From assembly GCF_055900595.2 (NCBI RefSeq), contig NZ_CM148325.1: a stretch of 64,000 nt of DNA, one strand, 5' to 3'. The notes under the pieces were generated by a model that was given only the letters and a program-made list of their open reading frames with translations, was not told the DNA's origin and ran no database searches. Below, piece after piece: positions 14,718-36,970 of this stretch (position 1 is the first letter of the stretch; every line of letters begins with the position of its first letter). The translations under genes were made by a program, and so were the position numbers.

Positions 14718-14871
14718 TTCTCCCCCTCATGTGATTCAGGCAGTTTACTCACCCCTTACAGGCCTCCTGCCATGCCCGGTGTTGTCGGCATTCGCTTACA
14801 ACAAACGCACTTTGTCTGTCCCTGCCCCGTTTTGCCATCATGAGACAAACGATCATCACGAGGGCCCGACA

Positions 14872-18455: not shown

Positions 18456-18739
18456 CGGGATTTTTTCAGCGCGTCAGTGACTGGATCACCTTCTGGGCGT
18501 CAGTGACGGCAACAACCATTGGTGTTATGACCATCAGCGAAAAAATTGCGCTGGCCGGGCTGCTTCTGGGGTCACTTTCCGCCATCCATGCCTGGCGCCA
18601 CCGCAGGCGTACGGAGCAGGCAATGAAGCGCCGCAATGACCTTATCGCCCGCATCCTGGCACGTTCAGAAAACCGCGAGCTTCACGACGGTGAGAGACGG
18701 GCACTGGACAGCGTGAGACAGGACGGAGAAGAGCGGTGA
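18449..18739 (+). CDS. Holin-like membrane protein (96 aa)
   Basis: Two hydrophobic segments; immediately upstream of the endolysin. Confidence 0.6.
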   Translation: MVTGFFQRVSDWITFWASVTATTIGVMTISEKIALAGLLLGSLSAIHAWRHRRRTEQAMKRRNDLIARILARSENRELHDGERRALDSVRQDGEER

Positions 18740-19281
18740 AGCTGCCGGTAAAACGTTATGCGGTGGCGGCCATTGTGGCGCTGGGCGTCTCCATGGCACC
18801 CGGTGAACTGAGAACCTCACGGGAAGCACAGATAAAAATCGCCACCCGGGAAGAGTGCCGGGCGACACCGTACCGTGATATTGCAGGAGTAATGACCGTG
18901 GGATGTGGTTCAACAGGGGGCGTGGAGAACCGGGTTTACGGAGAAAAGGAGGTGGCCCGCCGCTGGGTGAATGACCTGCGGCACGCGGAAAACTGTATCA
19001 ACCAGAACTTCAGCGGTGCCGCCATGCCCCAGTCCGCCTTTGAGGCGATGACCGACGCGGCGTTCAACGTCGGCTGTACCGGCCTGATGTGGTACCGGGA
19101 CAGGAGCGGCAACCGGCAGCGCACCACCATCTGGAAGCACGCACAGGCGCACCGCTGGGTGGCGATGTGCGGGAGACTGACCGATTTTGTCAACAGTGGC
19201 GGACGCCGCTCACAGGGGCTGGTTAACCGCCGGGAGGAGTTCAGACAGTGGTGTCTTCGCGACACGGGAGGCAGCACATGA
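18736..19281 (+). CDS. Endolysin with an N-terminal signal-anchor (SAR-type lysozyme)
   Basis: N-terminal TM (YAVAAIVALGVSMAPG) followed by a lysozyme-like motif (ECRATPYRDIAGVMTVGCGSTGG). Confidence 0.75.
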   Translation: MKLPVKRYAVAAIVALGVSMAPGELRTSREAQIKIATREECRATPYRDIAGVMTVGCGSTGGVENRVYGEKEVARRWVNDLRHAENCINQNFSGAAMPQSAFEAMTDAAFNVGCTGLMWYRDRSGNRQRTTIWKHAQAHRWVAMCGRLTDFVNSGGRRSQGLVNRREEFRQWCLRDTGGST

Positions 19282-19685
19282 GACCGGTTTACGCCGTGAT
19301 TGTTGCCCTCATGGTGACCGCCCTGACGGCAGTGGCCATGTGGCAGTCATACCGGCTGGGGCGTGCCGGTGAGGCACGTGACGCCGCAGAGCAGCAGCTG
19401 GGCGAATACAGCCGTGCGCTGCGTGAATCCTCCGCCGTTATCAGCGATGCCTCCGCCGTACTGCATGAGGTGATGACGCAGCGACAGCAAAGGGCACAGG
19501 AAGGAGAAGCCAGACGTGAACAGCTTCGCGAAATTACTGCGACGGATGAGTGCGCCCGCGCTCTTCCTGACCACCGTTTTACTGACCGGCTGCGCGAACA
19601 CACGGAACGCGCCACTGCCCGCGCCCTCCTTCCGGTTCATTCCGGCGGGACTGACGACGGGAACACGGCCCCCGCCCTTCCCTGA
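19278..19685 (+). CDS. i-spanin (Rz / LysB-like)
   Basis: ATG overlapping the endolysin stop; N-terminal TM plus a coiled-coil-like periplasmic region. Confidence 0.65.
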   Translation: MRPVYAVIVALMVTALTAVAMWQSYRLGRAGEARDAAEQQLGEYSRALRESSAVISDASAVLHEVMTQRQQRAQEGEARREQLREITATDECARALPDHRFTDRLREHTERATARALLPVHSGGTDDGNTAPALP

Positions 19686-21843: not shown

Positions 21844-22740
21844 ATGCCTTCCGTTGACCTGTCACAGTTACCGGAACCGGCCATCATCGCGCAGCCGGAT
21901 TTTGAGTCCATCCTGGCAGACATTAAAACCATGATGGTGAGCTCCTTCCCGGAAGAATACCGCGCCGCCGTCACCCGTGCCCTTACTCTGGAATCCGAGC
22001 CATTGAACATCATTTCCCAGGCCATGGCCTTTCGTGAAATGCTGCTTCGCCAGCGCATCAATGAAGCCGCCCGCGCCTGCATGCTCAGCCACAGCCGGGG
22101 CAGTGACCTGGACAATCTGGCTGCCAACAACAACACCCGCCGCCTGGTCATTCATCCGGCCACTGATACCACGGAAGCAGTGATGGAAAGCGACACATCG
22201 CTGCGTCTGCGTGCCCAGTCAGCCTGGGACGGCCTGAGTGTGGCCGGACCGTCCGGCGCGTATGAGTATTTTGCCCGGAGCGCAAGCGGTCTTGTCCGTG
22301 ATGCGCGCGCCATCAGCCCGTCACCGGCCACAGTCACCGTCTCCATCCTGTCAGCAGACGGTGACGGCACCGCCGGTGAGGCGTTACTGAACACGGTGCG
22401 CACCGCCCTGAATGCCGAGAACGTGCGCCCGGTTGCCGACCGCCTGACTGTGCAGAGTGCTACCATCGTGAACTGGGAAATGGAAGCGAAGCTGTATTTT
22501 TATCCAGGGCCGGAGTCTGAACCCATGCTTGCGGCCGCTGACGCCGCTTTCCGTGCATGGCTGGCAGACCAGGGCCGTATCGGTCAGGATGTGGCCCTGT
22601 CAGCCATCACTGCAGCGCTGCATGTTCACGGTGTCCAGCGCGTTGAGGTCATAAAACCCACGCAGAACATCACCATCAGTGACACTCAGGCAGCCAGATG
22701 TACCACATTCAGCATCAGCGAAGGAGGACGCAATGAGTGA
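21844..22740 (+). CDS. J: Baseplate wedge protein, P2 gpJ family
   Basis: 298 aa following W. Confidence 0.8.
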   Translation: MPSVDLSQLPEPAIIAQPDFESILADIKTMMVSSFPEEYRAAVTRALTLESEPLNIISQAMAFREMLLRQRINEAARACMLSHSRGSDLDNLAANNNTRRLVIHPATDTTEAVMESDTSLRLRAQSAWDGLSVAGPSGAYEYFARSASGLVRDARAISPSPATVTVSILSADGDGTAGEALLNTVRTALNAENVRPVADRLTVQSATIVNWEMEAKLYFYPGPESEPMLAAADAAFRAWLADQGRIGQDVALSAITAALHVHGVQRVEVIKPTQNITISDTQAARCTTFSISEGGRNE

Positions 22741-23461
22741 CAGGAAAAAAACAGACAGCGCACAGCACAGTACATCACTGCTTCCACCGTCCGCAGGGCC
22801 ATTCATGCGCGCCACAGAGGCGACAGGAGTACGCATCAGTACCATACCGGTGGACGCCGACACCCTGTGGTCGCCGGACCGCTGCCCTGCTCACCTCCTG
22901 CCCTACCTTGCATGGGCATGTTCCGTTGACCGCTGGGACCGCAACTGGCCGGAAGAGACCAGACGACAGGTGATTGGCCAGTCCTGGAAGGTACACCGCC
23001 AGAAAGGAACGGTCAGCGCACTGAGGGAAACAGCCGCAGCATTCGGTTATGAGATGACCATCAGTGAATGGTGGGAGCATGGAGGGCAGCCGGGCACCTT
23101 TACTGTGACCATCGGGGCAGACACTCAGGGCATCGGCCCTGAAACATGGCTGGAGATGGAGGATCTGCTCAATGATGCACGTCCGGTTTCACGTCATATG
23201 ACGGGGCTTTATGCCGCCCTGCGTTCTGGCGTGACGGTTTACTGCGCTGCGGGAGCAGGCTGTGATGAGCTTGTAACCATTCACCAGAAAGCTCGCGCCT
23301 CCCTGGCGGGCCAGGTGACCATCATCGCAGCAGGAGACACACACACAACCGACAGTGTGACCGTACTGCCGGGGGTTCCGTCAGGTATGTACGGGGAGAT
23401 CTGTATCCGTACCGGCGCAGGTATATTCGTGAGTGAGATTGTGGAGGTTATCACCTTATGA
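22733..23461 (+). CDS. I: Baseplate protein, P2 gpI family
   Basis: ATG 22733 with AAGGAGG Shine-Dalgarno; overlaps the J stop. Confidence 0.75.
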   Translation: MSDRKKTDSAQHSTSLLPPSAGPFMRATEATGVRISTIPVDADTLWSPDRCPAHLLPYLAWACSVDRWDRNWPEETRRQVIGQSWKVHRQKGTVSALRETAAAFGYEMTISEWWEHGGQPGTFTVTIGADTQGIGPETWLEMEDLLNDARPVSRHMTGLYAALRSGVTVYCAAGAGCDELVTIHQKARASLAGQVTIIAAGDTHTTDSVTVLPGVPSGMYGEICIRTGAGIFVSEIVEVITL

Positions 23462-24573
23462 ACACCGATTTTTATTCCGTTCTGACGGATGCCGGGCTGA
23501 AAAAACTGGCGGCAGCCGCAGCATCAGGGAATCAGATGAAAATCACCCATATGGCTGTAGGCGACGGAAACGGAAAAGCCGTAACACCCGGCAGGGCCGA
23601 CACCAGGCTTGTCAGGGAAAAATACCGTGCGCCACTGAACAGTCTGGAAGAAGACACAGAGAGACCGGGGCATGTTATCGCAGAAATGGTGATACCTGAA
23701 AAACAGGGAGGGTGGTGGATCAGAGAATTCGGATTATTCGACGAAGACGGCGGAATGATTGTTACAGGCAAATTTCCTGACACATGGAAGCCTGCACCTG
23801 GTCAGGGTGGAGCACGACTGATATCAGTGAAAGTGGTTGTGGCAGTATCACATACAGAAAACATTGTGCTGAAAGTGGATCCTTCTGTTGTCATGGCAAC
23901 CCGGGAATGGGTGAACACAAAAGCAGAGCAGTTAAAGAAAGAGCTCAGACAACCTGATGCAACCACCAAAACAAAAGGCATTGTTCAGCTTAGCAGTGAC
24001 ATCAACAGCACCTCTGAAACGCAGGCTGCCACCCCCGGAGCGGTAAAAGCCGTGAATGATCGTGTGGACGGAAAACAGGACGCGGATCCCACGCTCACAT
24101 CTCTGTCCGGGAAAAATGCACAGCAACTGAGGCAGCTTCTGGGGCTGGGCACGCTTGCCACCCTGAACAGGGGCACCGGTTCAGGGAATGTGCCGGACAT
24201 GAGTCACTTTGCGAGTAAAAAAGCAGACTACGGTTACCAGTGTTTTCCTGGCGGCATAATGATCCAGTGGCTGCGGATCCCCTCAGACCACACAGAAAGA
24301 GCTGTCAGTCAGGAAGCCCGGGTGGCACTAAGCGGCGTGCGACTGTTTTCAGTGGAGGGTAACTGGAACGGTAATAACATGATTAAGACCCTGGCAAACT
24401 ACCAGTGGCCGAGAGTTTTCGGGGCAATTTATGCGACCGTTGCAACCAGGAATCACGGATCTGCATGGCGAGTATATCCGGTGTCCGCGAACAAGGATGT
24501 GCGTGTCGTATCCATTGCCTGGGCGGGAGAAGGTACAGATGACACTTATGTGGTTGGGGTGGGAAGAGTATGA
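23458..24573 (+). CDS. H: Tail fibre protein, gpH-like (371 aa)
   Basis: N-terminus typical of P2-family tail fibres (MNTDFYSVLTDAGLKKLAAA...); host-range-variable C-terminus. Confidence 0.8.
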   Translation: MNTDFYSVLTDAGLKKLAAAAASGNQMKITHMAVGDGNGKAVTPGRADTRLVREKYRAPLNSLEEDTERPGHVIAEMVIPEKQGGWWIREFGLFDEDGGMIVTGKFPDTWKPAPGQGGARLISVKVVVAVSHTENIVLKVDPSVVMATREWVNTKAEQLKKELRQPDATTKTKGIVQLSSDINSTSETQAATPGAVKAVNDRVDGKQDADPTLTSLSGKNAQQLRQLLGLGTLATLNRGTGSGNVPDMSHFASKKADYGYQCFPGGIMIQWLRIPSDHTERAVSQEARVALSGVRLFSVEGNWNGNNMIKTLANYQWPRVFGAIYATVATRNHGSAWRVYPVSANKDVRVVSIAWAGEGTDDTYVVGVGRV

Positions 24574-25016
24574 AAATGATGTGGTCGCCGTCTGTGGGCG
24601 GTTTTTTTGGTGAAGACAGCAGCCATATACCGGAAGATGCGGTGGAGGTTGATGAATCGATGTGGAGCAGGATGATGGAGGGACAACTTGAGGGAAAAAT
24701 TATCGTTAACGGCCCTGACGACCTGCCTGTTCTGGAAGAGCGTCCGGGACCGGGGCCAGAAGAATACCGGCATCAGGCTCGCCTTGAGCTTGCTGACCTT
24801 CGCCGACAGGGGCTGGAACACATAGAGTCGATGCGCTGGCGTGACAAAGCGGTCATGAACAGGCTGGGAGAAGAGGAGAAGCAGGAGTATAACGCCTGGC
24901 TTGACTGGCTCGACGCGCTTGACAGTACGGACATATCAGGGGCACCGGATGTGGTGTGGCCGGTGATGCCCGTCACGGTGGTTCCTGAACATCCTCAGAA
25001 AAAATTGCCGGAGTGA
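24570..25016 (+). CDS. G: Tail fibre assembly chaperone, gpG-like
   Basis: 148 aa; overlaps the H stop. Confidence 0.75.
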   Translation: MKMMWSPSVGGFFGEDSSHIPEDAVEVDESMWSRMMEGQLEGKIIVNGPDDLPVLEERPGPGPEEYRHQARLELADLRRQGLEHIESMRWRDKAVMNRLGEEEKQEYNAWLDWLDALDSTDISGAPDVVWPVMPVTVVPEHPQKKLPE

Positions 25017-25023
25017 ACAGCCT

Positions 25024-25049
25024 CCGGCCTGAGACTGCACTCAGGCCGG
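25024..25049. terminator. Strong hairpin between convergent G and U genes
   Basis: CCGGCCTGAG-ACTGCA-CTCAGGCCGG, a perfect 10-bp stem; no clear T-tract on either side. Confidence 0.45.
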
Positions 25050-25057
25050 AAATTCTG

Positions 25058-25504
25058 TTATCTGCCAGCATTGCGGATGATACCCGAAAGCATATCAGAC
25101 ACCGACGGCATCATTCGCTCCCGCAAATCCTCATCACAGCGTTCCATACTGACAGTGAACTCAATTTTTTTGGCCTTACCGTGGCGGTCAAGTTCGCTTC
25201 GCGTTGTGCGGACAGCCGTTATCACATACATGCCGTATATCTGCCCCACACCGTCAATCAGCGGCCATGGGCGGCCAGTGTAAGCCTGCGTCGTTAAAAG
25301 GCTGAGGGAAACCTCACCGCCGGTAATTTCGGGATAAAGCACACCGGACAACGTGATCTGGTCGTCACCCGCCCCGATATACTGCCAGCTGGCCGAACGA
25401 TTGATGCGTTCATTTTTAACGTGGCGCCAGGTTTTATTATGTTGCAGTTGTTGATGAGGCAGCGTGCGCAACTCAAAAACAAACATGCCGTAAATCATCA
25501 TCAT
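25058..25504 (-). CDS. U: Tail protein, P2 gpU family
   Basis: 148 aa, MMMIYGMFVFELRTLP...WQYIGAGDDQITLSGVLYPEITGG matches recalled gpU (MMM... start, LSGVLYPEITGG). Confidence 0.8.
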   Translation of the reverse strand: MMMIYGMFVFELRTLPHQQLQHNKTWRHVKNERINRSASWQYIGAGDDQITLSGVLYPEITGGEVSLSLLTTQAYTGRPWPLIDGVGQIYGMYVITAVRTTRSELDRHGKAKKIEFTVSMERCDEDLRERMMPSVSDMLSGIIRNAGR

Positions 25505-25515
25505 GCGAGGTACTC

Positions 25516-28500
25516 CTAATCTCTGTCACGGAAACTACCGACTGTCTGGCGGATACGGCGTTCCATTTCCGCACGGACGGCATCACCCACCATTTTTGCC
25601 AGTTCGCGCGGGTTTTGCGTGTGAACATCATGCAGGTGAATATGCAGTTCGCCAGTTAATCCCCATGGTGCCGGATCACTCTGACGCGGTCGGGGCGATG
25701 CGGGGGATATGGGCTGGCGCACAGCCTCAACCACCGGACGGGATGTTGCCGTTACGACGGGTGTCATTACCGGCGCAATATTGCCGGACACTACCGGTTT
25801 AATTACCGGGGAGAGCGTCGGTATAACATCGCCAGCCATAACCGGTTTGATCGCTGGCGAAATAACCGGAGCAACAGACTCAGCCATGACGGAACTGACA
25901 GGCTGAGGCGCTCTCACTATGCCAGCATCGATAACCAGCATGAGCTCGCGTACTGCCTCAAGGACAGGACGGGATATTGCCGCCATCACTGGTGTCATTA
26001 GCGGGGAGAACGTCGGCATGACATCGTGAGTCATAACCGGTTTGATCACCGGCGAAACCACCGGCGTAATATTACCGGACAGTACCGGACGGACGACCGG
26101 AGGAATAACCGGCACATTATTCACGGACACCACCGGCTTCACGACCGGCGACACGTTCGCCGTGGTGGATATCAGCGGCGAAACACTGACAGGCGGTGGC
26201 GCTGGCAGCGGTGGCAACGAAGGCACACTGACCGACGGCACCTGCGGCAGTCTGACAGGTGGCTCACTGACACTACCCGGTAACAGGGAAGCTGCGCGGT
26301 TAAAGCGTTCCTCCTTCCACTCACCACGAACGGCCAGCGCTTCCGGCAGGTTTTTAAAGATAATATCGCCGGGACCAGTGCGTTTTTTCGCCTGTTTCGC
26401 CTCATCCAGCAGGCCACCGGTGTTATCGACGATTTTATTCAGGCGACGCATGGTGCCGGTATTCTCCCCCGTCAGCGGAGCAGTTGCTGCAGGTGCAGGT
26501 ACTGGCGGCTTTTTGTCTTTGTCATTTTGCGGCGGATTAATGACATTAACATCCGCCAGGAGCATGGCGGCTTTCTCGTTCAGCAGCTCCTTCTGCTTCA
26601 GCTCTTCCGCCTTTTTCCGGGCGCGCTCAACCGCCGACGGAATCAGCCCGAGTTTTTCCAGCACCCGGGTTAATGAGTCAATCAGCAGCGTAACCGGACC
26701 GGTCACCAGATTGCTGATAAACTCCCCGACCTTCTGCCCGAACGTCCGCCCGGCTTCCGTGCACTTGTCCAGCTCATCCTTTGTTGTGCTTACCGGCGCG
26801 AACAAATCCACGAACCACTGCCACACACGCCCGATTGTCTGCCCGACATACTCAAACAATGGTCCCAGTGGTGCCACAGCCTCGCGCAGTGGCGTAAGCC
26901 CCTGCCACAGGCCGGACAAGAACCCGCCCACGACAGCCTTCAGCTGGTCCCAGTGCCGCCAGATAAGCACTGCCGCACCGACCAGTGTCGCCACCACAAG
27001 GCCCACCGGACTTAACAGAAAACCCAGCGCCCCGCCAAGTGCGCCCACCGCACCACTCACCATCCCCCACAGTGCGGGCAGACCTGACAGTCTGAGCGCC
27101 AGTATTCCGATACCGCGCCCCAGTGAAATCAGTGCGCCGCCAGGTGAAGTGAACGCAGCCAGCAGACCACCACGCAGCGCGCCAAGTCCCGCCTGCACAC
27201 CACGAAGCCGCCCCGCAACTACGCCCAGCAGTGCAGCAAACCGTCCGGCACCGGAGGTGATACCGACAAACAGCACGCGCCAGCCACCGATACCGCCCAG
27301 CGGACCACCGAGTACGCCGCGCAGCTGCGTCAGTAACGGCAGCGCACGACCGAGGCCGGATGTGCCGGTCAGCAGGGCAAACCCAAGACGCAGTTTTGCC
27401 AGCGGCCCCATCAACACACCAGTGGCAAGTGACAGCGCCCCCATGGCCGCAACCGCAGCCAGCAGTGCACCACCGGCAATCAGCAGTTGTTTTGTCAGTT
27501 CAGGGTGCGCCTGGGCCAGCGCGGTGACTTTCGCAATAACCCGGGTGAACGACTGCGTGACAGAACGCAGCGGCCCGTCAACGAGGTCAGCGACACGGAT
27601 ACGCAGCCCTTCCCATGCGCTGTTCAGTGATTTCAGGTCGCCGTCCAGGTTGTCCGCCATGATTCTGGCGTTTTCTTCCAGTTCGCCGTTCGCTGCCTGA
27701 ATCTCACGCGTCAGGCGCGGCAGGTTTTTTTCGCCTGCCTGTTCAACCAGGCTCATCAGGGAGACATACGCCTCCTGCCCGGCAATATCTGAAAAGAACG
27801 AGACTTTTGCCGCGTTACCGTATTTACGGGTGGCCTGATACAGCTCATACAGGATATCTTCCATCGGGCGCATGTTCCCGTAAGCATCCTGCGTTTCCAC
27901 GCCCAGCTGTTTCAGCGCCTTTGCTGCCGCTTTAGGCGGGTTCACAAGGCGGGACAGACTGGAGCGCAGCGCCGTACCAGCATCACTGCCACGTATCCCC
28001 ATCGACCCAAGCAACCCGGTCATGGCTGCGGTCTGTTCAAGAGACAGACCGAGTGAGGCGGCGACCGGTCCCGTATATTTCATCGTCTCACCAAGCCCGC
28101 GCAGGTCGGTATTGGTGCGGGTGAACGTTGCGGCCAGCGTGTCACCCACGCGGTTCATCTGGTCGGCAGACAACCCGAACTGCGTAAGGATATTTGAGCT
28201 GATATCGGCCGTCTGACCGAGGTCCATGCCGCTGGCCGTTGCCAGATTCAGCACGCCGGGAAGAGCCGCCTGTATCGCCTGCGGCGTGAACCCCGCCATG
28301 GCAAGGAACGCCTGACCGCTGGCAGCATCACCTGCGGTAAACTGCGTTTCGGAGCCGAGTTTAAGCGCCTGTTCGCGCAGCGCCTTAAACTGCGGACTGT
28401 TTTTGTCAATACGGGTCAGCGCCTGGACGCGCGACATCTCCTTACCAAAACTGACCGCCGGTTGCAGGAAACGCCCGGCCGCATAGCCACCTGCCGCTGC

Positions 28501-29058
28501 CGTGCCGACTGCCGTAAATCCACCCGCTTTCAGTTTTCCCGCCATCTCCTGAGCGCGGAAATATTGCTGGCGTGCCTGCGTGACGCGTGCCAGAGTCTGC
28601 CGTTCACGTTCCAGCTGTTCGTTGTATTGCTGTGTTCGCCGTATGGCCTGTTGAATGGTGTTGTCACTGCCGGAAAGCGCAATACCGTGACGCCGCAGCT
28701 CACCACCCAGTTCGCGCATTCGCTGAACTTCACGCGCACGGACCTCATTGAGACGCTCAAGTTTGAGGCTCAAATCGTTCATCAGCTTTTTCTGTTTGTC
28801 AGACAGCACGGTTCCGGCGCGCTGAATTTGCTGAAGTGCGCTTAACTGGCGTTGTGCCCGGGCAATGCCGTTTCCGGCCTTGTTTGCAGCCTCGCGGGCG
28901 CGATCAAATGAACGGGCGTGGCGTTCCAGGTTTTTGATCGCACCCTGCGTTCTCTGTATGGAGTCGCCAAGCTGGCCCATCATGCGACGGGCGTTTTCGG
29001 TGGGACGGGTCAGCCTGTCAACAGCGCTGAAGGCGACCCGTATATCAAGCGTTTTCAT
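25516..29058 (-). CDS. T: Tail tape measure protein, gpT-like (about 1180 aa from ATG 29056-29058; ORF track starts at GTG 29094)
   Basis: Very long helical protein with glycine-rich TM-like middle; an unusual Pro/Val-rich internally duplicated region near the C-terminus (DNA about 25700-26300). Confidence 0.85.
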   Translation of the reverse strand: MKTLDIRVAFSAVDRLTRPTENARRMMGQLGDSIQRTQGAIKNLERHARSFDRAREAANKAGNGIARAQRQLSALQQIQRAGTVLSDKQKKLMNDLSLKLERLNEVRAREVQRMRELGGELRRHGIALSGSDNTIQQAIRRTQQYNEQLERERQTLARVTQARQQYFRAQEMAGKLKAGGFTAVGTAAAGGYAAGRFLQPAVSFGKEMSRVQALTRIDKNSPQFKALREQALKLGSETQFTAGDAASGQAFLAMAGFTPQAIQAALPGVLNLATASGMDLGQTADISSNILTQFGLSADQMNRVGDTLAATFTRTNTDLRGLGETMKYTGPVAASLGLSLEQTAAMTGLLGSMGIRGSDAGTALRSSLSRLVNPPKAAAKALKQLGVETQDAYGNMRPMEDILYELYQATRKYGNAAKVSFFSDIAGQEAYVSLMSLVEQAGEKNLPRLTREIQAANGELEENARIMADNLDGDLKSLNSAWEGLRIRVADLVDGPLRSVTQSFTRVIAKVTALAQAHPELTKQLLIAGGALLAAVAAMGALSLATGVLMGPLAKLRLGFALLTGTSGLGRALPLLTQLRGVLGGPLGGIGGWRVLFVGITSGAGRFAALLGVVAGRLRGVQAGLGALRGGLLAAFTSPGGALISLGRGIGILALRLSGLPALWGMVSGAVGALGGALGFLLSPVGLVVATLVGAAVLIWRHWDQLKAVVGGFLSGLWQGLTPLREAVAPLGPLFEYVGQTIGRVWQWFVDLFAPVSTTKDELDKCTEAGRTFGQKVGEFISNLVTGPVTLLIDSLTRVLEKLGLIPSAVERARKKAEELKQKELLNEKAAMLLADVNVINPPQNDKDKKPPVPAPAATAPLTGENTGTMRRLNKIVDNTGGLLDEAKQAKKRTGPGDIIFKNLPEALAVRGEWKEERFNRAASLLPGSVSEPPVRLPQVPSVSVPSLPPLPAPPPVSVSPLISTTANVSPVVKPVVSVNNVPVIPPVVRPVLSGNITPVVSPVIKPVMTHDVMPTFSPLMTPVMAAISRPVLEAVRELMLVIDAGIVRAPQPVSSVMAESVAPVISPAIKPVMAGDVIPTLSPVIKPVVSGNIAPVMTPVVTATSRPVVEAVRQPISPASPRPRQSDPAPWGLTGELHIHLHDVHTQNPRELAKMVGDAVRAEMERRIRQTVGSFRDRD

Positions 29059-29571
29059 GCTCTGCGTTCCCGCTGCGAAGGGCCGCCCGCTCACGCCAGG
29101 CGACCACCTCGCCGGGATCCATCAGGAAGATTTCAGCGGGAGACCAGTTGAAAATAACGGCGATATCCGCCACAAAGTCTTCAATATGCTCAAAGGGCAC
29201 GACGGTTATCAGCCTGCCGTCGCCGCCACGCTCTTCCCGCCAGAGTCCTGACCGGCCAAAAAATTAACCGCCACCCCGCACAGCTGAATAAAATCAGCGG
29301 ACCCCATGCGCTTAAGCAGAACCTCGTCCAGTCGCGGCGAAGTGACGCGCGGGAGTAACTCAAACATCGCGTCCGTTTTCATGTTCAGCACGTCAAGCAG
29401 TGACAGCCCGCGCAGTGAACCGGCCTGCTGTACAGCAGGCGTGATTTCCACATACGTGATTTTTTTGTTACCGAGCACAAGGGGCGTTTTCAGCGTCACG
29501 CCGCGCTCACTGGTCACGTCCGCCGCATCAGCACCGTCAGTAACAGGGGCAACAACCGGATTTTCTTTCAT
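29045..29571 (-). CDS. E: Tail assembly chaperone gpE, with predicted -1 frameshift extension E+E'
   Basis: E ORF 29209..29571. Slippery T TTT TTG on the minus strand at 29257-29263 inside codons N-F-L; the -1 frame stays open to a TGA at 29045-29047, overlapping the start of T, as in P2 E/E'. Confidence 0.7.
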
Positions 29572-29621
29572 GAATAAAACCTCAAATCAGGGGGCGACGC
29601 CACGCGCCGCCGTGGAAAACA

Positions 29622-30140
29622 TTAACCACCAAGACCAATCGCCGAGCGCACGCGGTCCGGGAAGACGCTTTTGCCGTCCTTGCGTTCGATGTGGTTCAGT
29701 AAATCAATCTCCAGCACCGGACGGTCGTTAATGCTGAGTTTGTAGTAGGTACTTTTGACCGCATAGGTGTGAGACGTGACCTCACCCTGTTTGGCCTCCC
29801 CGGTATCAATTTCCGTCACGCGACCGCGAAGCTCAATCTCGTACAGGTCACTCTGTTCTTCATCGTTGTAGTACTCACCGACAAAGCGCAGCAGCGTACC
29901 GTCAATCGTTCCGCCGTACTTGAGGAACAGTTCGCGGGTCGGCCCGCCCATGGTGAAACTCGCATCCAGCGCGCCGTCATCCAGGCCAAGGTCGATATTT
30001 ACTGCACCGGCCATACCACCACCGCGATAGGCTTCCGTTTTACGGGTCAGTTTGGGGGCCGTGAAGCCGGTCACTCTGCCAATCTGGTTCACCCCGTCAG
30101 TAAACAGCGTGAACACCCTGAGATTTTTTGGTACGGCCAT
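29622..30140 (-). CDS. FII: Major tail tube protein, P2 gpFII family
   Basis: 172 aa between sheath and E. Confidence 0.8.
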   Translation of the reverse strand: MAVPKNLRVFTLFTDGVNQIGRVTGFTAPKLTRKTEAYRGGGMAGAVNIDLGLDDGALDASFTMGGPTRELFLKYGGTIDGTLLRFVGEYYNDEEQSDLYEIELRGRVTEIDTGEAKQGEVTSHTYAVKSTYYKLSINDRPVLEIDLLNHIERKDGKSVFPDRVRSAIGLGG

Positions 30141-31423
30141 TAAGCACCTCCAAGCGTCGCAAATGCAGGACCAAAGAATTCATCAGTAAACGTCTGGTAA
30201 AGTTCCATATCCTCAAGCGGCGGAACGGGCGTGTACTTGTAGCGGATACGCACGCGTCCCTGACGAAGTTCCGTGGTGCTGTTATCCACCACGTCATACC
30301 AGCACTCCGCACCAACGAGACGTCCTGACGTAACCAGCGCATCCAGTTTTGCGCGAATTGCGCTTAACACGTCTTTCACATTAGCAGGGGTCAGCGGGGC
30401 ATCAATCGTTTCAAACTGCGCTTCCGCAACAGAATCAGCCAGCACCTGAGCGGTTCGCGTGTACACCTCAAAGATATACGCCTTCGTTTCCGGCGTACGG
30501 TTGCCCCAGAAGCGGAAACCGTTACGGCGAATGATGGTGGTGATTTCCTTGTTGTTGAGATTGTTGGCATCGCTGTCTTCGGACTGAAGGGACCAGAACA
30601 CCGGGCTGGAAATACCCAGCACATTTCTTACCGGCACGTTGGACAGCGATTTATGCCAGCCCTGTTCGTGGTCAATACGTGCACGTAAACCGCAGGCGTA
30701 CGCCGCAGCCGGGAAGACCTCATTAGCGCCGGATTTCGGGTTATGGGCGATGAAGTCAGGCCAGAGCAGCATAAGTTCGCGCTCGTTAAATCTGGCGCGG
30801 TAGCTGATTGCATCAGCGGGCTTCTTGCAGTTGTGACAGCCCGCGTAGACAAATGCGCGAAGTTTTTCTGCAATTACACACAGGGATTTTGTGACAGCTT
30901 CAGTATCCAGTCCGGGCGCTGCGATGATGCGCGGACGGTAACCGATGGCATCATCCTGTTCAGCTATCAGAAGTGCATACATACCGGTATAATTACCGTC
31001 GTCATCCGTGCCACCAATGACATACTGGTCCTGCGTTTTGTGTGGGTATACAGGATGTGCATCTTCAGACTCATCAATACCAAAAAATGCCCTGTCTTCA
31101 GGATCCAGATGACCGAATGATGTAACTCCTGTATCCGGGGCGCCCTGAGAACTGGCATCAGGAACGCGCACCACAATCACCTTCGTGCTCACCTGGTCGG
31201 CGACAGCCTTAAGTGAACGGTACAGCGTGCCCTTTGTGCCGGTCTTACCCAGCACATCACTGACGCGGGTCAGCAGTATGGGTTTGTTCAGCGGGAACAG
31301 AGTTTCATCCGCGTCATCTGCCGTAGCCACAATACCAATAACACTGGAATCCACATCATTAATGGCGGTGGTAAGGCCGGTACTTTCCCTTACGCGCGCA
31401 CCATGAAAGCGTGTTTCACTCAT
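30140..31423 (-). CDS. FI: Tail sheath protein, P2 gpFI family
   Basis: From ATG 31421-31423 (MSETRFHGARV...); multiple segments match recalled P2 FI (FPLNKP, GTKGTL, QEQGWHKTLSNV, GFRFWGNRT, YTRTAQV, YTPVPPLE). Confidence 0.85.
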   Translation of the reverse strand: MSETRFHGARVRESTGLTTAINDVDSSVIGIVATADDADETLFPLNKPILLTRVSDVLGKTGTKGTLYRSLKAVADQVSTKVIVVRVPDASSQGAPDTGVTSFGHLDPEDRAFFGIDESEDAHPVYPHKTQDQYVIGGTDDDGNYTGMYALLIAEQDDAIGYRPRIIAAPGLDTEAVTKSLCVIAEKLRAFVYAGCHNCKKPADAISYRARFNERELMLLWPDFIAHNPKSGANEVFPAAAYACGLRARIDHEQGWHKSLSNVPVRNVLGISSPVFWSLQSEDSDANNLNNKEITTIIRRNGFRFWGNRTPETKAYIFEVYTRTAQVLADSVAEAQFETIDAPLTPANVKDVLSAIRAKLDALVTSGRLVGAECWYDVVDNSTTELRQGRVRIRYKYTPVPPLEDMELYQTFTDEFFGPAFATLGGA

Positions 31424-31583
31424 ATGTTTCACCCTTGTCTGGCTGGTTGATTTTGCGTAATCATTACCCACGATGCCGCCGGTATCATCTCCTGCCCGTT
31501 CTCACCGTTCGCTTACAACAAACAGCCGTTCACCACGGTCGCACGCCGTGAAAACATGACGGGACACACCACGAGGGCAGACC

Positions 31584-32675
31584 ATGACCGACCTGTTAAT
31601 CAACGTTCCGTCACCGGATATCGAAATCACCATCAACAACAACAGACTCCGTAACGTCACGGAGCGGCTCATGACGCTGTCACTGACCGACAACCGGGGC
31701 TTTGAGGCGGACCGCGTCACCCTGACCATTGACGACGCGGACGGGCAGCTTCAGCTGGCACAGCGCGGCGCACGCCTGAACGTGATGATTGGCTGGCGCG
31801 GGGAGGCGCTGGTTAACAAGGGTGTCTACATCGTTGATGAAGTGACGTGGGAAGGCCCGCCGGACAAACTGACCATCACCGCCAGCAGCGCCGATTTTCG
31901 CGAAGAGTTCAACGTGAAGCGTGAAGTCTCCTGGCACGACGTGACGGTAAAACAGGTTGTGTCAGCCATCGCGCACCGCTACGGCCTGAAAGCACAGATA
32001 AGCGATATCCTCATGGATATCGAAATTGACCACGCAGACCAGACCGAAGAGAGCGATATATCCTTCCTGACCCGCATGGCTGAAATGCTGGGTGCGATTG
32101 CCACCGTAAAAAACGGCAGCCTGTTATTCATTCTGCCGGGTGGCGGAACCGGGCCGGACGGAAGAGCCCTGCCTTCGTTCGCCATTACCCGCAGCAGCGG
32201 CGACAGTCACCGCTTTCGCATTGCTGACCGTGATGCGTATACGGGGGTCCGGGCGCACTGGCTCGATCTGAAGTTCGGGCAAAAGAAAAAAGTGAACGTG
32301 AAGCGACGCAGGGAAGCCGGGAAACAGAAACAGGAGAAGAGCAGCAGCCGGGAAGGTGATTACATGGAGGGCGCGGAAGGGAACGTCTACGTTCTGCGCA
32401 GGACTTACCAGAATGAAGAAACCGCACGACGTGCAGCAGCTGCAAAGTGGCAGGAACTACAGCGGGGCGCGGCATCATTCTCCATCACGCTGGCGCGCGG
32501 TCGTGCCGACCTGTACCCTGAAATGCACGGCAGGGTAACAGGTTTTAAAAGCGAGGTGGACAATCAGGACTGGATTATTGCCAGGGTGGAGCACAGCATA
32601 GATGAAAGCGGCTTCACCACACAACTGGAGCTGGAAGCGAAAATCCCCGAATGGATAGCAGATTCAGGCGGATAA
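31584..32675 (+). CDS. D: Late control / tail protein, P2 gpD family
   Basis: 363 aa at the D position, upstream of ogr. Confidence 0.8.
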   Translation: MTDLLINVPSPDIEITINNNRLRNVTERLMTLSLTDNRGFEADRVTLTIDDADGQLQLAQRGARLNVMIGWRGEALVNKGVYIVDEVTWEGPPDKLTITASSADFREEFNVKREVSWHDVTVKQVVSAIAHRYGLKAQISDILMDIEIDHADQTEESDISFLTRMAEMLGAIATVKNGSLLFILPGGGTGPDGRALPSFAITRSSGDSHRFRIADRDAYTGVRAHWLDLKFGQKKKVNVKRRREAGKQKQEKSSSREGDYMEGAEGNVYVLRRTYQNEETARRAAAAKWQELQRGAASFSITLARGRADLYPEMHGRVTGFKSEVDNQDWIIARVEHSIDESGFTTQLELEAKIPEWIADSGG

Positions 32676-32974: not shown

Positions 32975-33990
32975 AATAATCAGGTTGAGAGGACATCATA
33001 AGGCAAGTAGATTAACGGCAGATACTTTCCCGCAACCACGGGCAAGTATTTAATTATCCATGATGAAATATGACCTAAATTGTTTTTTGCCCGCCGGAAA
33101 GCGGGCATTTTTTTATTCTTTTGTGGTTATGGGGTCATCAGGAACCACGTGCAGATTATATTTTTGTTTTTTTGGCGTTCCTCCGGCAGCAACGAGTTCA
33201 TCAATAAGACACTGACACGCCTGAACATCCCGGGCATGTCTTAGTTTCACCTTTATTGATTTAACCTTATCCTCACCGGAGGAGAAATGCAGTTCAATCT
33301 CAATATCGTTTCTTCGGAACAATCTCATACGCCCCCCTGAACATATCAGAAATGCTAGTATCGAAAAATGAGAAAACAGTTAGACAGGAGAAACATATTA
33401 ACACAAATCATTTATACCTATAGATGAAATTATAATTTCATTCATGAATATGATAGATAACTATATTGTGAACAAAATGAAAAATGGCTAAATTAAAAAT
33501 GGGCATGGAGGAATGCCTCGTAATCAGTAATACATGATCCATACTTCCTTGTTTTGCCCGCCGGAAAGCGGGCATTTTTTTGGCGGTTACCATCGCCTCA
33601 CCTTCCTGGTTCACACAAAGCAACCCTGATTTTCCATGAAAACTTCAGGGTTGAGCCAAAAGCACAAAGACAGTAGATTAACCAAGGGTACCCGCCACCT
33701 GCCAACAGGAACGGTATCCAGTACGTATTAATGACTGACAATTCACATTGCTGTTTTGCCCGCCAGAAGGTGGGCATTTTTTTGGCAGTTATCATGGACG
33801 CACCTTCATGACACATATTAAGCAGACCTGATTTTTCCATGAAAAATTCATGGTTGAGACAAAAGCACAAAAACAGTAGATTAACCACGGGTGCCTGCCA
33901 CCTGACAACAGGAAGGGGTGTCCATTATCCATGATATACAAACGAAAAGTCTTGTCTTTTGCCCGCCGTTGCGCGGGCTTTTTTTTTGCC
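32975..33990. repeat. Array of diverged att-like repeat units, each ending in a GC hairpin plus T-tract
   Basis: Hairpin GCCCGCC-loop-GCGGGC plus T-run at 33089-33115, 33556-33582, 33768-33792 and 33961-33987. Units share GGTTGAG...AGTAGATTAACC...CCACGGG...TTATCCATGAT; the first unit directly follows ogr. Confidence 0.6.
33113..33328 (-). CDS. Hypothetical small protein (71 aa)
   Basis: ORF track; G-rich Shine-Dalgarno-like sequence upstream; AT-rich promoter-like region with palindrome ATGAAATTATAATTTCAT upstream on the minus strand. Confidence 0.35.
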   Translation of the reverse strand: MRLFRRNDIEIELHFSSGEDKVKSIKVKLRHARDVQACQCLIDELVAAGGTPKKQKYNLHVVPDDPITTKE

Positions 33991-34016
33991 ACCCTCACCA
34001 GTGAGGGTACCATCAT

Positions 34017-34465: not shown

Positions 34466-36970
34466 ATGTCACAAACTATCGACCTGACCCTGGACGGCCT
34501 GTCCTGCGGTCACTGCGTTAAACGCGTGAAAGAAAGTCTCGAACAGCGCCCGGATGTTGAGCAGGCGGATGTGTCTATCACTGAAGCGCACGTTACCGGT
34601 ACTGCCAGTGCAGAACAGCTGATCGAAACCATCAAACAAGCGGGTTATGACGCATCTGTAAGCCACCCAAAGGCTAAACCGCTGGCGGAGTCATCAATCC
34701 CGTCGGAAGCACTGACAGCGGTTTCTGAGGCGCTTCCGGCAGCAAACGCCGATGACGATGACAGTCAGCAGTTGCTGCTGAGCGGCATGAGCTGCGCCAG
34801 CTGTGTTACCCGCGTACAAAATGCGCTGCAAAGCGTACCGGGCGTCACTCAGGCACGGGTAAACCTGGCGGAGCGTACTGCGCTGGTGATGGGCAGTGCC
34901 TCCCCACAAGATTTAGTGCAGGCAGTGGAAAAAGCGGGCTACGGCGCGGAAGCGATTGAAGATGACGCTAAACGCCGCGAGCGCCAGCAGGAAACCGCCG
35001 TCGCTACCATGAAGCGCTTCCGCTGGCAGGCAATTGTCGCTCTGGCGGTAGGTATCCCGGTGATGGTCTGGGGGATGATCGGCGATAACATGATGGTCAC
35101 CGCCGACAACCGCAGTCTGTGGTTAGTTATCGGCCTGATAACGCTGGCGGTAATGGTTTTCGCCGGCGGGCATTTTTACCGTAGCGCATGGAAAAGCCTG
35201 CTGAACGGTGCGGCGACAATGGATACGCTGGTGGCGCTGGGTACTGGCGTGGCGTGGCTCTATTCAATGAGCGTCAACCTGTGGCCGCAGTGGTTCCCGA
35301 TGGAAGCGCGACATCTTTATTACGAAGCCAGTGCGATGATTATCGGTCTGATTAATCTCGGTCATATGCTGGAAGCGCGCGCACGTCAGCGTTCTTCAAA
35401 GGCGCTGGAGAAATTACTCGATTTAACCCCGCCGACGGCGCGCCTGGTCACTGACGAAGGTGAAAAAAGCGTGCCGCTGGCAGATGTTCAGCCTGGTATG
35501 TTACTACGCCTGACGACCGGCGATCGCGTACCGGTAGATGGTGAAATTACCCAGGGCGAAGCGTGGCTGGATGAAGCAATGCTGACGGGCGAACCTATTC
35601 CGCAGCAAAAAGGCGAAGGCGATAGCGTTCATGCAGGTACCGTGGTGCAGGACGGTAGCGTGCTGTTTCGTGCCAGTGCGGTTGGCAGCCATACTACGCT
35701 GTCACGGATCATTCGTATGGTGCGCCAGGCCCAGAGCAGTAAACCGGAAATCGGCCAGTTGGCGGATAAAATCTCTGCCGTATTTGTGCCGGTAGTGGTG
35801 GTGATTGCGCTGGTCAGTGCGGCAATCTGGTACTTCTTTGGTCCGGCACCGCAAATTGTTTATACCCTGGTGATTGCCACTACGGTACTGATTATCGCCT
35901 GCCCGTGTGCGCTGGGGCTGGCAACGCCAATGTCGATTATTTCCGGCGTCGGGCGTGCGGCTGAATTTGGCGTGCTGGTGCGGGACGCCGACGCGCTGCA
36001 GCGCGCCAGTACGCTCGACACCGTAGTGTTCGATAAAACCGGGACGCTGACCGAAGGGAAGCCGCAGGTTGTCGCAGTAAAAACATTTGCTGATGTTGAT
36101 GAAGCGCAAGCATTGCGTCTGGCGGCGGCACTGGAACAAGGTTCCAGCCATCCGCTGGCACGGGCGATCCTCGATAAAGCAGGCGATATGCAGCTGCCGC
36201 AGGTCAACAGCTTCCGTACATTGCGTGGGCTGGGCGTGAGCGGTGAAGCAGAAGGTCATGCGTTATTGCTGGGTAATCAGGCGTTGTTAAATGACCAGCA
36301 AGTCGATACTAAAGCGATTGAAGCAGATATTTCAGCCCAGGCATCGCAAGGGGCAACGCCTGTGCTGCTGGCGGTTGACGGGAAAGCGGTGGCCTTGCTG
36401 GCGGTGCGCGATCCGTTGCGTAACGATAGTGTGGCGGCACTGCAACGTCTGCATAAAGCGGGATATCGTCTGGTGATGCTAACCGGGGATAACCCGACCA
36501 CCGCCAATGCGATCGCCAAAGAAGCAGGGATTGATGAGGTGATAGCCGGCGTGCTGCCAGACGGTAAAGCCGAAGCGATCAAACGTCTGCAAAGTGAAGG
36601 ACGTCAGGTGGCAATGGTGGGCGACGGCATTAACGACGCGCCAGCGCTGGCTCAGGCGGATGTCGGTATTGCTATGGGTGGCGGCAGCGATGTTGCCATT
36701 GAAACCGCGGCGATTACCCTGATGCGCCATAGCCTGATGGGTGTTGCGGATGCGCTCGCAATTTCCCGCGCAACGCTGCGCAACATGAAGCAGAACCTGC
36801 TCGGTGCGTTTATCTACAACAGCATTGGTATTCCGGTCGCCGCCGGTATTTTGTGGCCGTTCACGGGAACACTGCTTAACCCGGTGGTTGCCGGAGCGGC
36901 AATGGCGCTCTCGTCGATTACCGTAGTGAGTAACGCCAACCGGTTGCTGCGGTTTAAACCGAAGGAATAA
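34466..36970 (+). CDS. copA: Cu(I)-translocating P-type ATPase
   Basis: 834 aa; two N-terminal GLSCGHC / GMSCASC metal-binding motifs, CPC in the TM domain, DKTGTLT phosphorylation motif. Confidence 0.95.

What the first reader, a model, noticed from the sequence alone, without database searches (positions are those of the whole stretch)
29045..29571. Programmed -1 frameshift E/E' retained in the inverted tail block
The slippery heptamer T TTT TTG lies in the E reading frame on the minus strand (plus coordinates 29257-29263). The -1 frame stays open for about 70 codons and stops just inside the start of the tape measure gene. This is the conserved tail-chaperone recoding arrangement and supports the block being functional despite its inverted orientation.
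Basis: partly seen in the sequence, partly recalled or inferred. Interest (0 to 1): 0.15.

Follow-up and report, generated by a model that had tools for sequence, protein, structure and literature searches.

The report
P2-type tail chaperone frameshift site
This is the well-known "slippery" site at which ribosomes of P2-like phages shift back one base to make a longer tail-assembly protein (E+E'), here in an E. coli prophage related to phage P88; it is real, conserved and ordinary.

Summary
On the minus strand, gene E (29571-29209, 120 aa) carries T TTT TTG at 29263-29257 in the X XXY YYZ register. The -1 frame is closed by a TAA directly upstream of the heptamer. It then stays open for exactly 70 codons to a TGA at 29047-29045, 14 nt inside the tape-measure gene (ATG 29058).

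The -1 frame encodes a true homologue of P2 E' (Pfam PF06528, 4e-12). The E part aligns with P2 gpE up to the Phe-Leu encoded by the heptamer. The same in-frame heptamer, followed by a 57-73-codon -1 ORF ending at the T start, is present in all nine reference phages from nine Peduoviridae lineages that I checked, and in 78 of 80 IMG/VR relatives. Substitutions in the E'-only stretch concentrate at E' third codon positions.

No downstream RNA structure was found, as reported for P2.

The "inverted" FI-FII-E-E'-T-U block is the normal layout of P88-like phages. P88 is inducible and forms plaques, so the inversion is not an anomaly of this locus.

This is an already known feature. RefSeq annotates it as two separate CDSs. 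Frameshifting itself is inferred here by homology, not shown.

The parts
29209..29571 (-). Gene E (tail assembly chaperone, zero-frame product, 120 aa; stop TGA 29211-29209)
   Evidence: ORF. phrog_103 'tail protein' 4e-31. 36% identity to P2 gpE, E=1e-14, with the alignment ending at ..FL. No Pfam or NCBIfam model matches it.
29257..29263 (-). Slippery heptamer T TTT TTG (codons 104-105 = Phe-Leu)
   Evidence: Read directly. Register computed. Same heptamer and register in P2, 186, P88, Chuche, phiT5282H, 3LV2017, vB_YenM_31.17, Shewanella M16-3 and Burkholderia FLC5, and in 78 of 80 IMG/VR loci. F104 and L105 are invariant columns.
29264..29266 (-). TAA in the -1 frame directly upstream of the heptamer; together with the E stop at 29209 it confines any 0 to -1 transition to 29263-29209
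   Evidence: '-1 frame open from 709' equals the heptamer position.
29045..29257 (-). E' reading frame (-1 relative to E): 70 sense codons plus TGA; the first 49 nt overlap the 3' end of E and the last 14 nt overlap T
   Evidence: Translation. PF06528 Phage_P2_GpE 4e-12. phrog_1756 6e-33 and phrog_6416. Substitutions against P88 at E' codon positions 1/2/3 = 5/3/16, and against phiT5282H 13/6/25, in the E'-only stretch.
29045..29571 (-). Predicted fusion product E+E', 175 aa (105 aa from frame 0 plus 70 aa from frame -1)
   Evidence: Constructed. tblastn finds both halves as two joined pieces in 396 phage records, 107 of them at 80% coverage or more. Alignment A1.
25516..29058 (-). Tape-measure gene T (1180 aa from ATG 29058)
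   Evidence: PF10145 3e-58. 59% identity to P88 T from residue 1.
29622..30140 (-). Tail tube gene FII
   Evidence: PF04985 4e-44.
30140..31423 (-). Tail sheath gene FI (start taken from the 1284-nt RefSeq CDS of the near-identical prophage)
   Evidence: PF04984, PF22671 and PF17482.
25058..25504 (-). Gene U
   Evidence: PF06995 7e-41.
31584..32675 (+). Gene D, on the strand opposite to the FI-U block, as in P88
   Evidence: PF05954 4e-17; P88 layout.

Best explanation
Genes E and E' of a P2-family (P88-like) E. coli prophage are expressed by programmed -1 ribosomal frameshifting. Most ribosomes translate E to its stop at 29209 and make a 120-aa protein. A minority slip back one base while Phe-tRNA and Leu-tRNA occupy T TTT TTG (29263-29257), then continue in the -1 frame and make a 175-aa E+E' protein that ends 14 nt inside the tape-measure gene. 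In P2 the minority is about 10%; that figure is my recollection of Christie et al. 2002. By analogy with P2 E/E+E' and lambda G/GT, the shared N-terminal part would bind the tape-measure protein, and the E' extension would recruit the tube protein, so the fixed ratio of the two products supports tail assembly. What is shown here is the sequence anatomy, the homology of both frames, the conservation and the coding constraint in the E' frame. What is inferred is the frameshifting itself, its efficiency and the chaperone role.
For: Exact X XXY YYZ register, and the only such heptamer in E. The -1 frame is closed by TAA immediately upstream, and the 0 frame closes 45 nt downstream of the heptamer, so the switch must occur within 29263-29209. 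The -1 frame hits Pfam PF06528 'Phage P2 GpE' (4e-12, above the curated cutoff), phrog_1756 and phrog_6416. E aligns with P2 gpE up to the Phe-Leu of the slip site. The gene order FII-E-E'-T-U is confirmed. The heptamer, register and -1 ORF ending at the T start are conserved in nine reference phages from nine lineages and in 78 of 80 IMG/VR loci. F104 and L105 are invariant. There is a third-position substitution bias in the E' frame, and in the E/E' overlap most changes fall on E' position 3, which is E position 2. Literature: the P2 -1 frameshift at TTTTTTG gives E (91 aa) and E+E' (142 aa), without a downstream hairpin (PMC3091744). The G/GT-type frameshift is conserved among long-tailed phages, and its efficiency in P2-like phages is 2- to 3-fold that of lambda (PMC5009743).
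Against: There is no experimental evidence for this locus. No stimulatory RNA structure was found downstream (z = -0.61) and there is no Rfam match; the same is reported for P2, so this counts only weakly against. The heptamer by itself is common, with 32 copies in the window. A GTG at 29200 allows E' to be drawn as a free-standing 51-aa ORF, which is how RefSeq annotates it.
Confidence: 0.93

Rival explanations
1. E' is an independent small gene, translated from its own start (GTG 29200, 51 aa) as drawn in RefSeq and in several phage records, with no recoding.
For: The ORF 29200-29045 with a GTG start exists. On its own it contains the whole PF06528 match (4e-13). PGAP and several phage records annotate it separately as 'GpE family phage tail protein'.
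Against: No Shine-Dalgarno-like sequence precedes GTG 29200 (read...GGCTGATAACCGTC GTG). The -1 frame remains open, and is conserved at the protein level, for 19 codons upstream of that GTG, back to the heptamer (GLWREERxGDGxLITVV in P88 and Chuche; GGDG in phiT5282H and 3LV2017). phrog_1756 aligns from fusion residue 98, that is, across the junction. In P2 the frame was shown to be translated as a -1 extension of E (PMC3091744, citing Christie 2002).
Confidence: 0.03
2. The E+E' fusion is made by transcriptional slippage: RNA polymerase adds one extra U in the U6 run, rather than the ribosome slipping.
For: The site is a homopolymer run of six T. One inserted U would put downstream sequence in the same frame as a -1 ribosomal shift. 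The sequence alone cannot separate the two mechanisms.
Against: From my own knowledge, efficient slippage by bacterial RNA polymerase generally needs runs of about 8-9 or more A/T, so six is short. What is conserved is the full heptamer, including the 3' G and its exact codon register, which matters for tRNA re-pairing but not for polymerase slippage. In two relatives the run is broken (TTTTATG), yet an in-register A AAT TTT heptamer remains.
Confidence: 0.03
3. The arrangement is a non-functional relic in a decaying prophage: the sequence is preserved only by recent descent, and no frameshift product is needed or made.
For: This is a prophage in an E. coli chromosome. In the near-identical prophage of strain CM2, RefSeq flags T and the baseplate J gene as pseudogenes.
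Against: In the window all the P2-type head, baseplate and tail genes that I checked are uninterrupted ORFs with full-length family matches, including J (298 aa) and T (1180 aa, aligned end to end with P88 T). The E' frame shows purifying selection against relatives at about 77% DNA identity.
Confidence: 0.05

Closest known systems
Bacteriophage P2 genes E and E+E' (FETUD tail operon; Christie et al. 2002, cited through PMC3091744)
   Same: Same heptamer T TTT TTG in the same register at the homologous Phe-Leu. A homologous N-terminal domain (36% identity) and a homologous E' domain (PF06528). Same position between FII and T. E' ends overlapping the T start. No downstream hairpin.
   Different: E is 120 aa here against 91 aa, with a longer N-terminus. 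E' is 70 codons against 57, because of a 10-residue insertion just after the slip site, within GLWREERGGDG. The E stop lies 45 nt after the heptamer rather than 18 nt. The -1-frame stop abuts the heptamer here, whereas in P2 it is 9 nt upstream. The operon is on the strand opposite to the H/G and D genes.
Escherichia phage P88 and relatives (Xuanwuvirus, Peduoviridae) gp47/gp46
   Same: Same block layout, with FI-FII-E-E'-T-U opposite to D and to the fibre genes. E+E' is 73% identical. E' has 70 codons, the E stop lies 45 nt after the heptamer, and the overlap with T is 14 nt.
   Different: P88-type sequences carry two overlapping in-register heptamers (A AAT TTT and T TTT TTG), whereas the window has only the second. 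DNA identity is only about 77% over about 40% of the late region. T is 245 aa longer here. There is no invertase or alternative fibre cassette next to U.
Phage lambda G/GT tail assembly chaperones and the conserved tail-gene frameshift of long-tailed phages (Xu, Hendrix and Duda 2004; PMC5009743)
   Same: [quoted passage not shown] The presumed role is chaperoning the tape measure and recruiting the tube protein.
   Different: No sequence similarity was detected (no Pfam tail-chaperone family hit). A different heptamer (G GGA AAG in lambda, from my own knowledge). The reported efficiency in P2-like phages is 2- to 3-fold higher. The tail is contractile.

Membership tests
P2 gpE / gpE+E' frameshifted tail-assembly pair (Peduoviridae) | Located between the tail tube gene (FII) and the tape-measure gene (T) | tested here: met
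   PF04985 tube at 29622-30140 and PF10145 tape measure at 25516-29058, both on the minus strand.
P2 gpE / gpE+E' frameshifted tail-assembly pair (Peduoviridae) | Zero-frame product homologous to P2 gpE | tested here: met
   BLASTP against P2 gpE: 36% identity over 87 aa, E=1e-14. phrog_103 4e-31. No Pfam or NCBIfam model matches E.
P2 gpE / gpE+E' frameshifted tail-assembly pair (Peduoviridae) | -1 frame encodes the GpE (E') domain, Pfam PF06528 | tested here: met
   45.8 bits against a cutoff of 23, E=4e-12, fusion residues 134-169; 49 bits on the 51-aa ORF.
P2 gpE / gpE+E' frameshifted tail-assembly pair (Peduoviridae) | T TTT TTG heptamer in X XXY YYZ register near the 3' end of E, at the position homologous to P2 | tested here: met
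   F104 and L105 are invariant in nine lineages.
P2 gpE / gpE+E' frameshifted tail-assembly pair (Peduoviridae) | -1 ORF is closed upstream of the slip site and ends at or overlapping the start of T | tested here: met
   TAA 29266-29264; TGA 29047-29045 against T ATG 29058.
P2 gpE / gpE+E' frameshifted tail-assembly pair (Peduoviridae) | A fusion protein is actually made by -1 frameshifting (about 10% in P2) and is essential for tail assembly | not testable with these tools
   Needs a reporter assay, mass spectrometry or genetics.
Lambda G/GT-type tail assembly chaperones | Sequence membership in a described tail-assembly-chaperone family | tested here: not met
   No Pfam hit other than PF06528, no NCBIfam hit and no PDB sequence relative. 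It works like G/GT, but is not a sequence-level member. The fold was not compared.
Lambda G/GT-type tail assembly chaperones | Binds the tape-measure protein and recruits the tube protein; absent from mature virions | not testable with these tools
   Biochemical property.
Xuanwuvirus (P88-like phages) | Genome-wide nucleotide similarity at genus level, and shared gene order with the FI-U block opposite to D and H/G | tested here: inconclusive
   The gene order is shared. However, megablast covers only 40% of window 11000-34000 at 76.8% identity, so genus membership is not established.

The most novel reading that the evidence does not exclude
The least ordinary reading still open concerns the P88-type lineage's changes around the site. 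These are the 10-residue insertion directly after the slip (within GLWREERGGDG), the 45-nt rather than 18-nt E/E' overlap, and, in this prophage, the -1-frame TAA abutting the heptamer together with a tape measure 245 aa longer than in P88. These might tune frameshift efficiency or the chaperone-to-tape-measure stoichiometry differently from P2. Alternatively, a third product might start at GTG 29200. Nothing in the data calls for either idea.
Probability: 0.05. Interest if true: 0.2.

Novelty: already known. Interest (0 to 1): 0.07.

Why it matters
The value is mainly for annotation. RefSeq and many phage records split this gene into a 120-aa 'phage tail protein' and a separate 51-aa 'GpE family' CDS, whereas the real second product is almost certainly a 175-aa frameshift fusion. 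The finding also shows that the tail module of this prophage is intact and under selection. It opens no new biological question.

Tried and rejected
A downstream stimulatory RNA structure: the fold of 29256-29160 is no better than shuffles (z = -0.61). Rfam at E<=1 over 28800-29800 gave nothing.

Significance of the heptamer alone: rejected, because there are 32 copies in the window.

Pfam and NCBIfam models for the E part: none match. Homology had to be shown by direct comparison with P2 gpE and by PHROGs.

Solved structures by sequence: none. I did not run structure prediction or fold search, because the verdict did not depend on it.

Antisense ORFs on the plus strand (29306-29731 and 28865-29251) and the +1-frame ORF 29190-29363 have no credible family hits. 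I treat them as by-products of GC-rich coding sequence.

Ogr-type TGT-N12-ACA dyads: none lie in the FI/D intergenic region, and the window total is not above chance.

Tandem repeats as the cause of the long T gene: none found.

The primary paper Christie et al. 2002 (PMC135442) is not held in the library. It is cited through PMC3091744 and from memory.

Full report
**Observation**

Read on the minus strand, an ORF starts at ATG 29571, preceded by GAGG eight bases upstream, and ends at TGA 29211-29209 (120 aa). TTTTTTG occupies 29263-29257. The offset from the start codon is 308 nt. T29263 is therefore the last base of codon 103 (AAT), and TTT and TTG are codons 104 and 105. This is the X XXY YYZ register required for tandem tRNA slippage, and it is the only such heptamer in the ORF.

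In the -1 frame a TAA (29266-29264) lies directly 5' of the heptamer. The frame is then open for exactly 70 codons to TGA 29047-29045. The tape-measure ORF, with its conserved ATG at 29058 (MKTLDIRVAF..., identical in P88), is overlapped by 14 nt.

**Is it more than chance?**

Not from the motif alone. TTTTTTG occurs 32 times in the window (15.5 expected). A -1 run of at least 70 codons is seen at 3.8% of positions in this prophage's own genes. The weight comes from homology and conservation:

- **The -1 frame.** The predicted 175-aa fusion hits Pfam PF06528 'Phage P2 GpE' at residues 134-169, entirely within the -1 frame (E=4e-12, 45.8 bits, cutoff 23). It also hits phrog_1756 and phrog_6416.
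- **The zero-frame part.** It hits phrog_103 and is 36% identical to P2 gpE (E=1e-14). The alignment runs up to ..V-x-F-L, the residues encoded by the heptamer.
- **Reference phages.** tblastn with the fusion finds both halves as two adjacent pieces in 396 phage records. In nine reference phages from nine lineages (P2, 186, P88, Chuche, phiT5282H, 3LV2017, vB_YenM_31.17, Shewanella M16-3, Burkholderia FLC5), T TTT TTG is in the same register. In each it is followed by a 57-73-codon -1 ORF that ends at or just inside the tape-measure start. Phe-Leu at the site is invariant.
- **IMG/VR loci.** 78 of 80 P88-type IMG/VR loci (47 distinct sequences) keep the heptamer. The other two have TTTTATG, but retain the overlapping in-register A AAT TTT.
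- **Coding constraint.** In the E'-only stretch, differences from P88 fall 5/3/16 on E' codon positions 1/2/3, and differences from phiT5282H fall 13/6/25. In the E/E' overlap most changes fall on E' position 3, which is position 2 of the E frame, so E' is the more constrained frame there.

**Context**

The window is E. coli DNA. The tail block is 98-99.8% identical to prophages in a few complete E. coli genomes, mostly from chickens. In one of them, strain CM2, the prophage lies between glsA and copA. copA starts at 34466 in the window.

The morphogenetic genes are of the P2 type and are uninterrupted:

- portal, large terminase, scaffold, capsid and small terminase;
- V, J, I, fibre and fibre-assembly genes;
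- U, T, FII, FI and D.

The nearest described phages are P88 and relatives (Xuanwuvirus), at about 77% DNA identity. In P88, FI-FII-E-E'-T-U lies on the strand opposite to D and to the fibre genes. The window is collinear with P88 through this region. P88 is mitomycin-inducible, forms plaques and has a myovirus morphology (PMC5285337). The 'inverted' orientation, relative to P2, is therefore the normal state of this lineage and needs no special explanation.

**Mechanism**

The best-supported reading is the P2 mechanism. In P2, a -1 shift at TTTTTTG yields E (91 aa) and E+E' (142 aa) from one start, with no downstream hairpin (PMC3091744, citing Christie et al. 2002 and Xu et al. 2004). The efficiency in P2-like phages is 2- to 3-fold that of lambda G/GT (PMC5009743); I recall a figure of about 10% from Christie et al.

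Here too there is no significant structure downstream (z = -0.61) and no Rfam match. The TAA in the -1 frame and the TGA in the 0 frame restrict any frame change to 29263-29209, where the heptamer is the only candidate.

The roles (E binds the tape measure; the E' domain recruits the tube protein) are inferred from lambda G/GT and P2 genetics. They were not tested here.

**Rivals**

- **An independently initiated 51-aa E' from GTG 29200.** This is how RefSeq draws it. It is unlikely. There is no ribosome-binding site, and the frame is conserved at the protein level for 19 codons upstream of that GTG, back to the heptamer.
- **Transcriptional slippage on a T6 run.** This is unlikely, because the run is short and because the 3' G and the codon register are conserved.
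- **A decaying relic.** This is contradicted by the intact ORFs and the purifying selection.

**Verdict**

The feature is already known and already partly annotated. It differs from P2 only in detail: a longer E N-terminus, a 10-residue insertion after the slip site, and a 45-nt rather than 18-nt distance from the heptamer to the E stop. Interest is low.

Noticed in passing
window 25516-29058 (-): The tape-measure gene encodes 1180 aa against 935 aa in P88. The extra length sits in two blocks (about residues 507-600 and 920-1104) and is not tandem-repeat derived. In the 99.5%-identical prophage of E. coli CM2, RefSeq calls T a pseudogene ('missing C-terminus'), although the ORF in the window is uninterrupted. 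A longer tape measure would predict a longer tail.
   Followed up: partly
L033 and L090 (IMG/VR loci), about position 690-700: Two P88-type relatives have TTTTATG instead of TTTTTTG, but keep the overlapping in-register heptamer A AAT TTT. P88-type phages thus carry two tandem slippery heptamers, whereas the window (GTT AAT TTT TTG) has only the second.
   Followed up: partly
window 25007-25050: A GC-rich hairpin (11 pairs; TCCGGCCTGAG...CTCAGGCCGGA) lies in the 41-nt gap between the convergent fibre-assembly gene (24570-25016, +) and U (25058-25504, -). It looks like a bidirectional terminator closing both late operons.
   Followed up: no
window 22679-25504 compared with P88 (L001 8251-11065): P88 has a DNA invertase and alternative fibre and fibre-assembly cassettes next to U; the window has none. 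Its fibre gene is short (371 aa, against 812 aa in the otherwise near-identical CM2 prophage), so the fibre module has been exchanged between close relatives.
   Followed up: no
window 31424-31583: The 160-nt divergent intergenic region between FI (-) and D (+) must hold the late promoters of both units. It has no sigma-70 consensus hit and no TGT-N12-ACA dyad of the kind described for P2 Ogr-dependent promoters. One such dyad lies at 14783-14800, in the divergent terminase/scaffold region.
   Followed up: partly
window 1-34400 and 34466 onward: By comparison with strain CM2, the prophage lies between glsA and copA, and the window appears to start inside the integrase gene. The host genes copA, ybaP, ybaK and ushA follow. 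The left attachment site is outside the window.
   Followed up: partly
window 33000-34000: This stretch between D/ogr and copA holds five of the 32 TTTTTTG copies and only small hypothetical ORFs. TTTTTTG is about twice as frequent in the window as in shuffles (32 against 15.5).
   Followed up: no
L012 (E. coli CM2) 18613-19509: The baseplate J gene of the near-identical CM2 prophage is annotated with an internal stop, whereas the window's J (21844-22740) is intact. Sister copies of this prophage are at different stages of decay.
   Followed up: no
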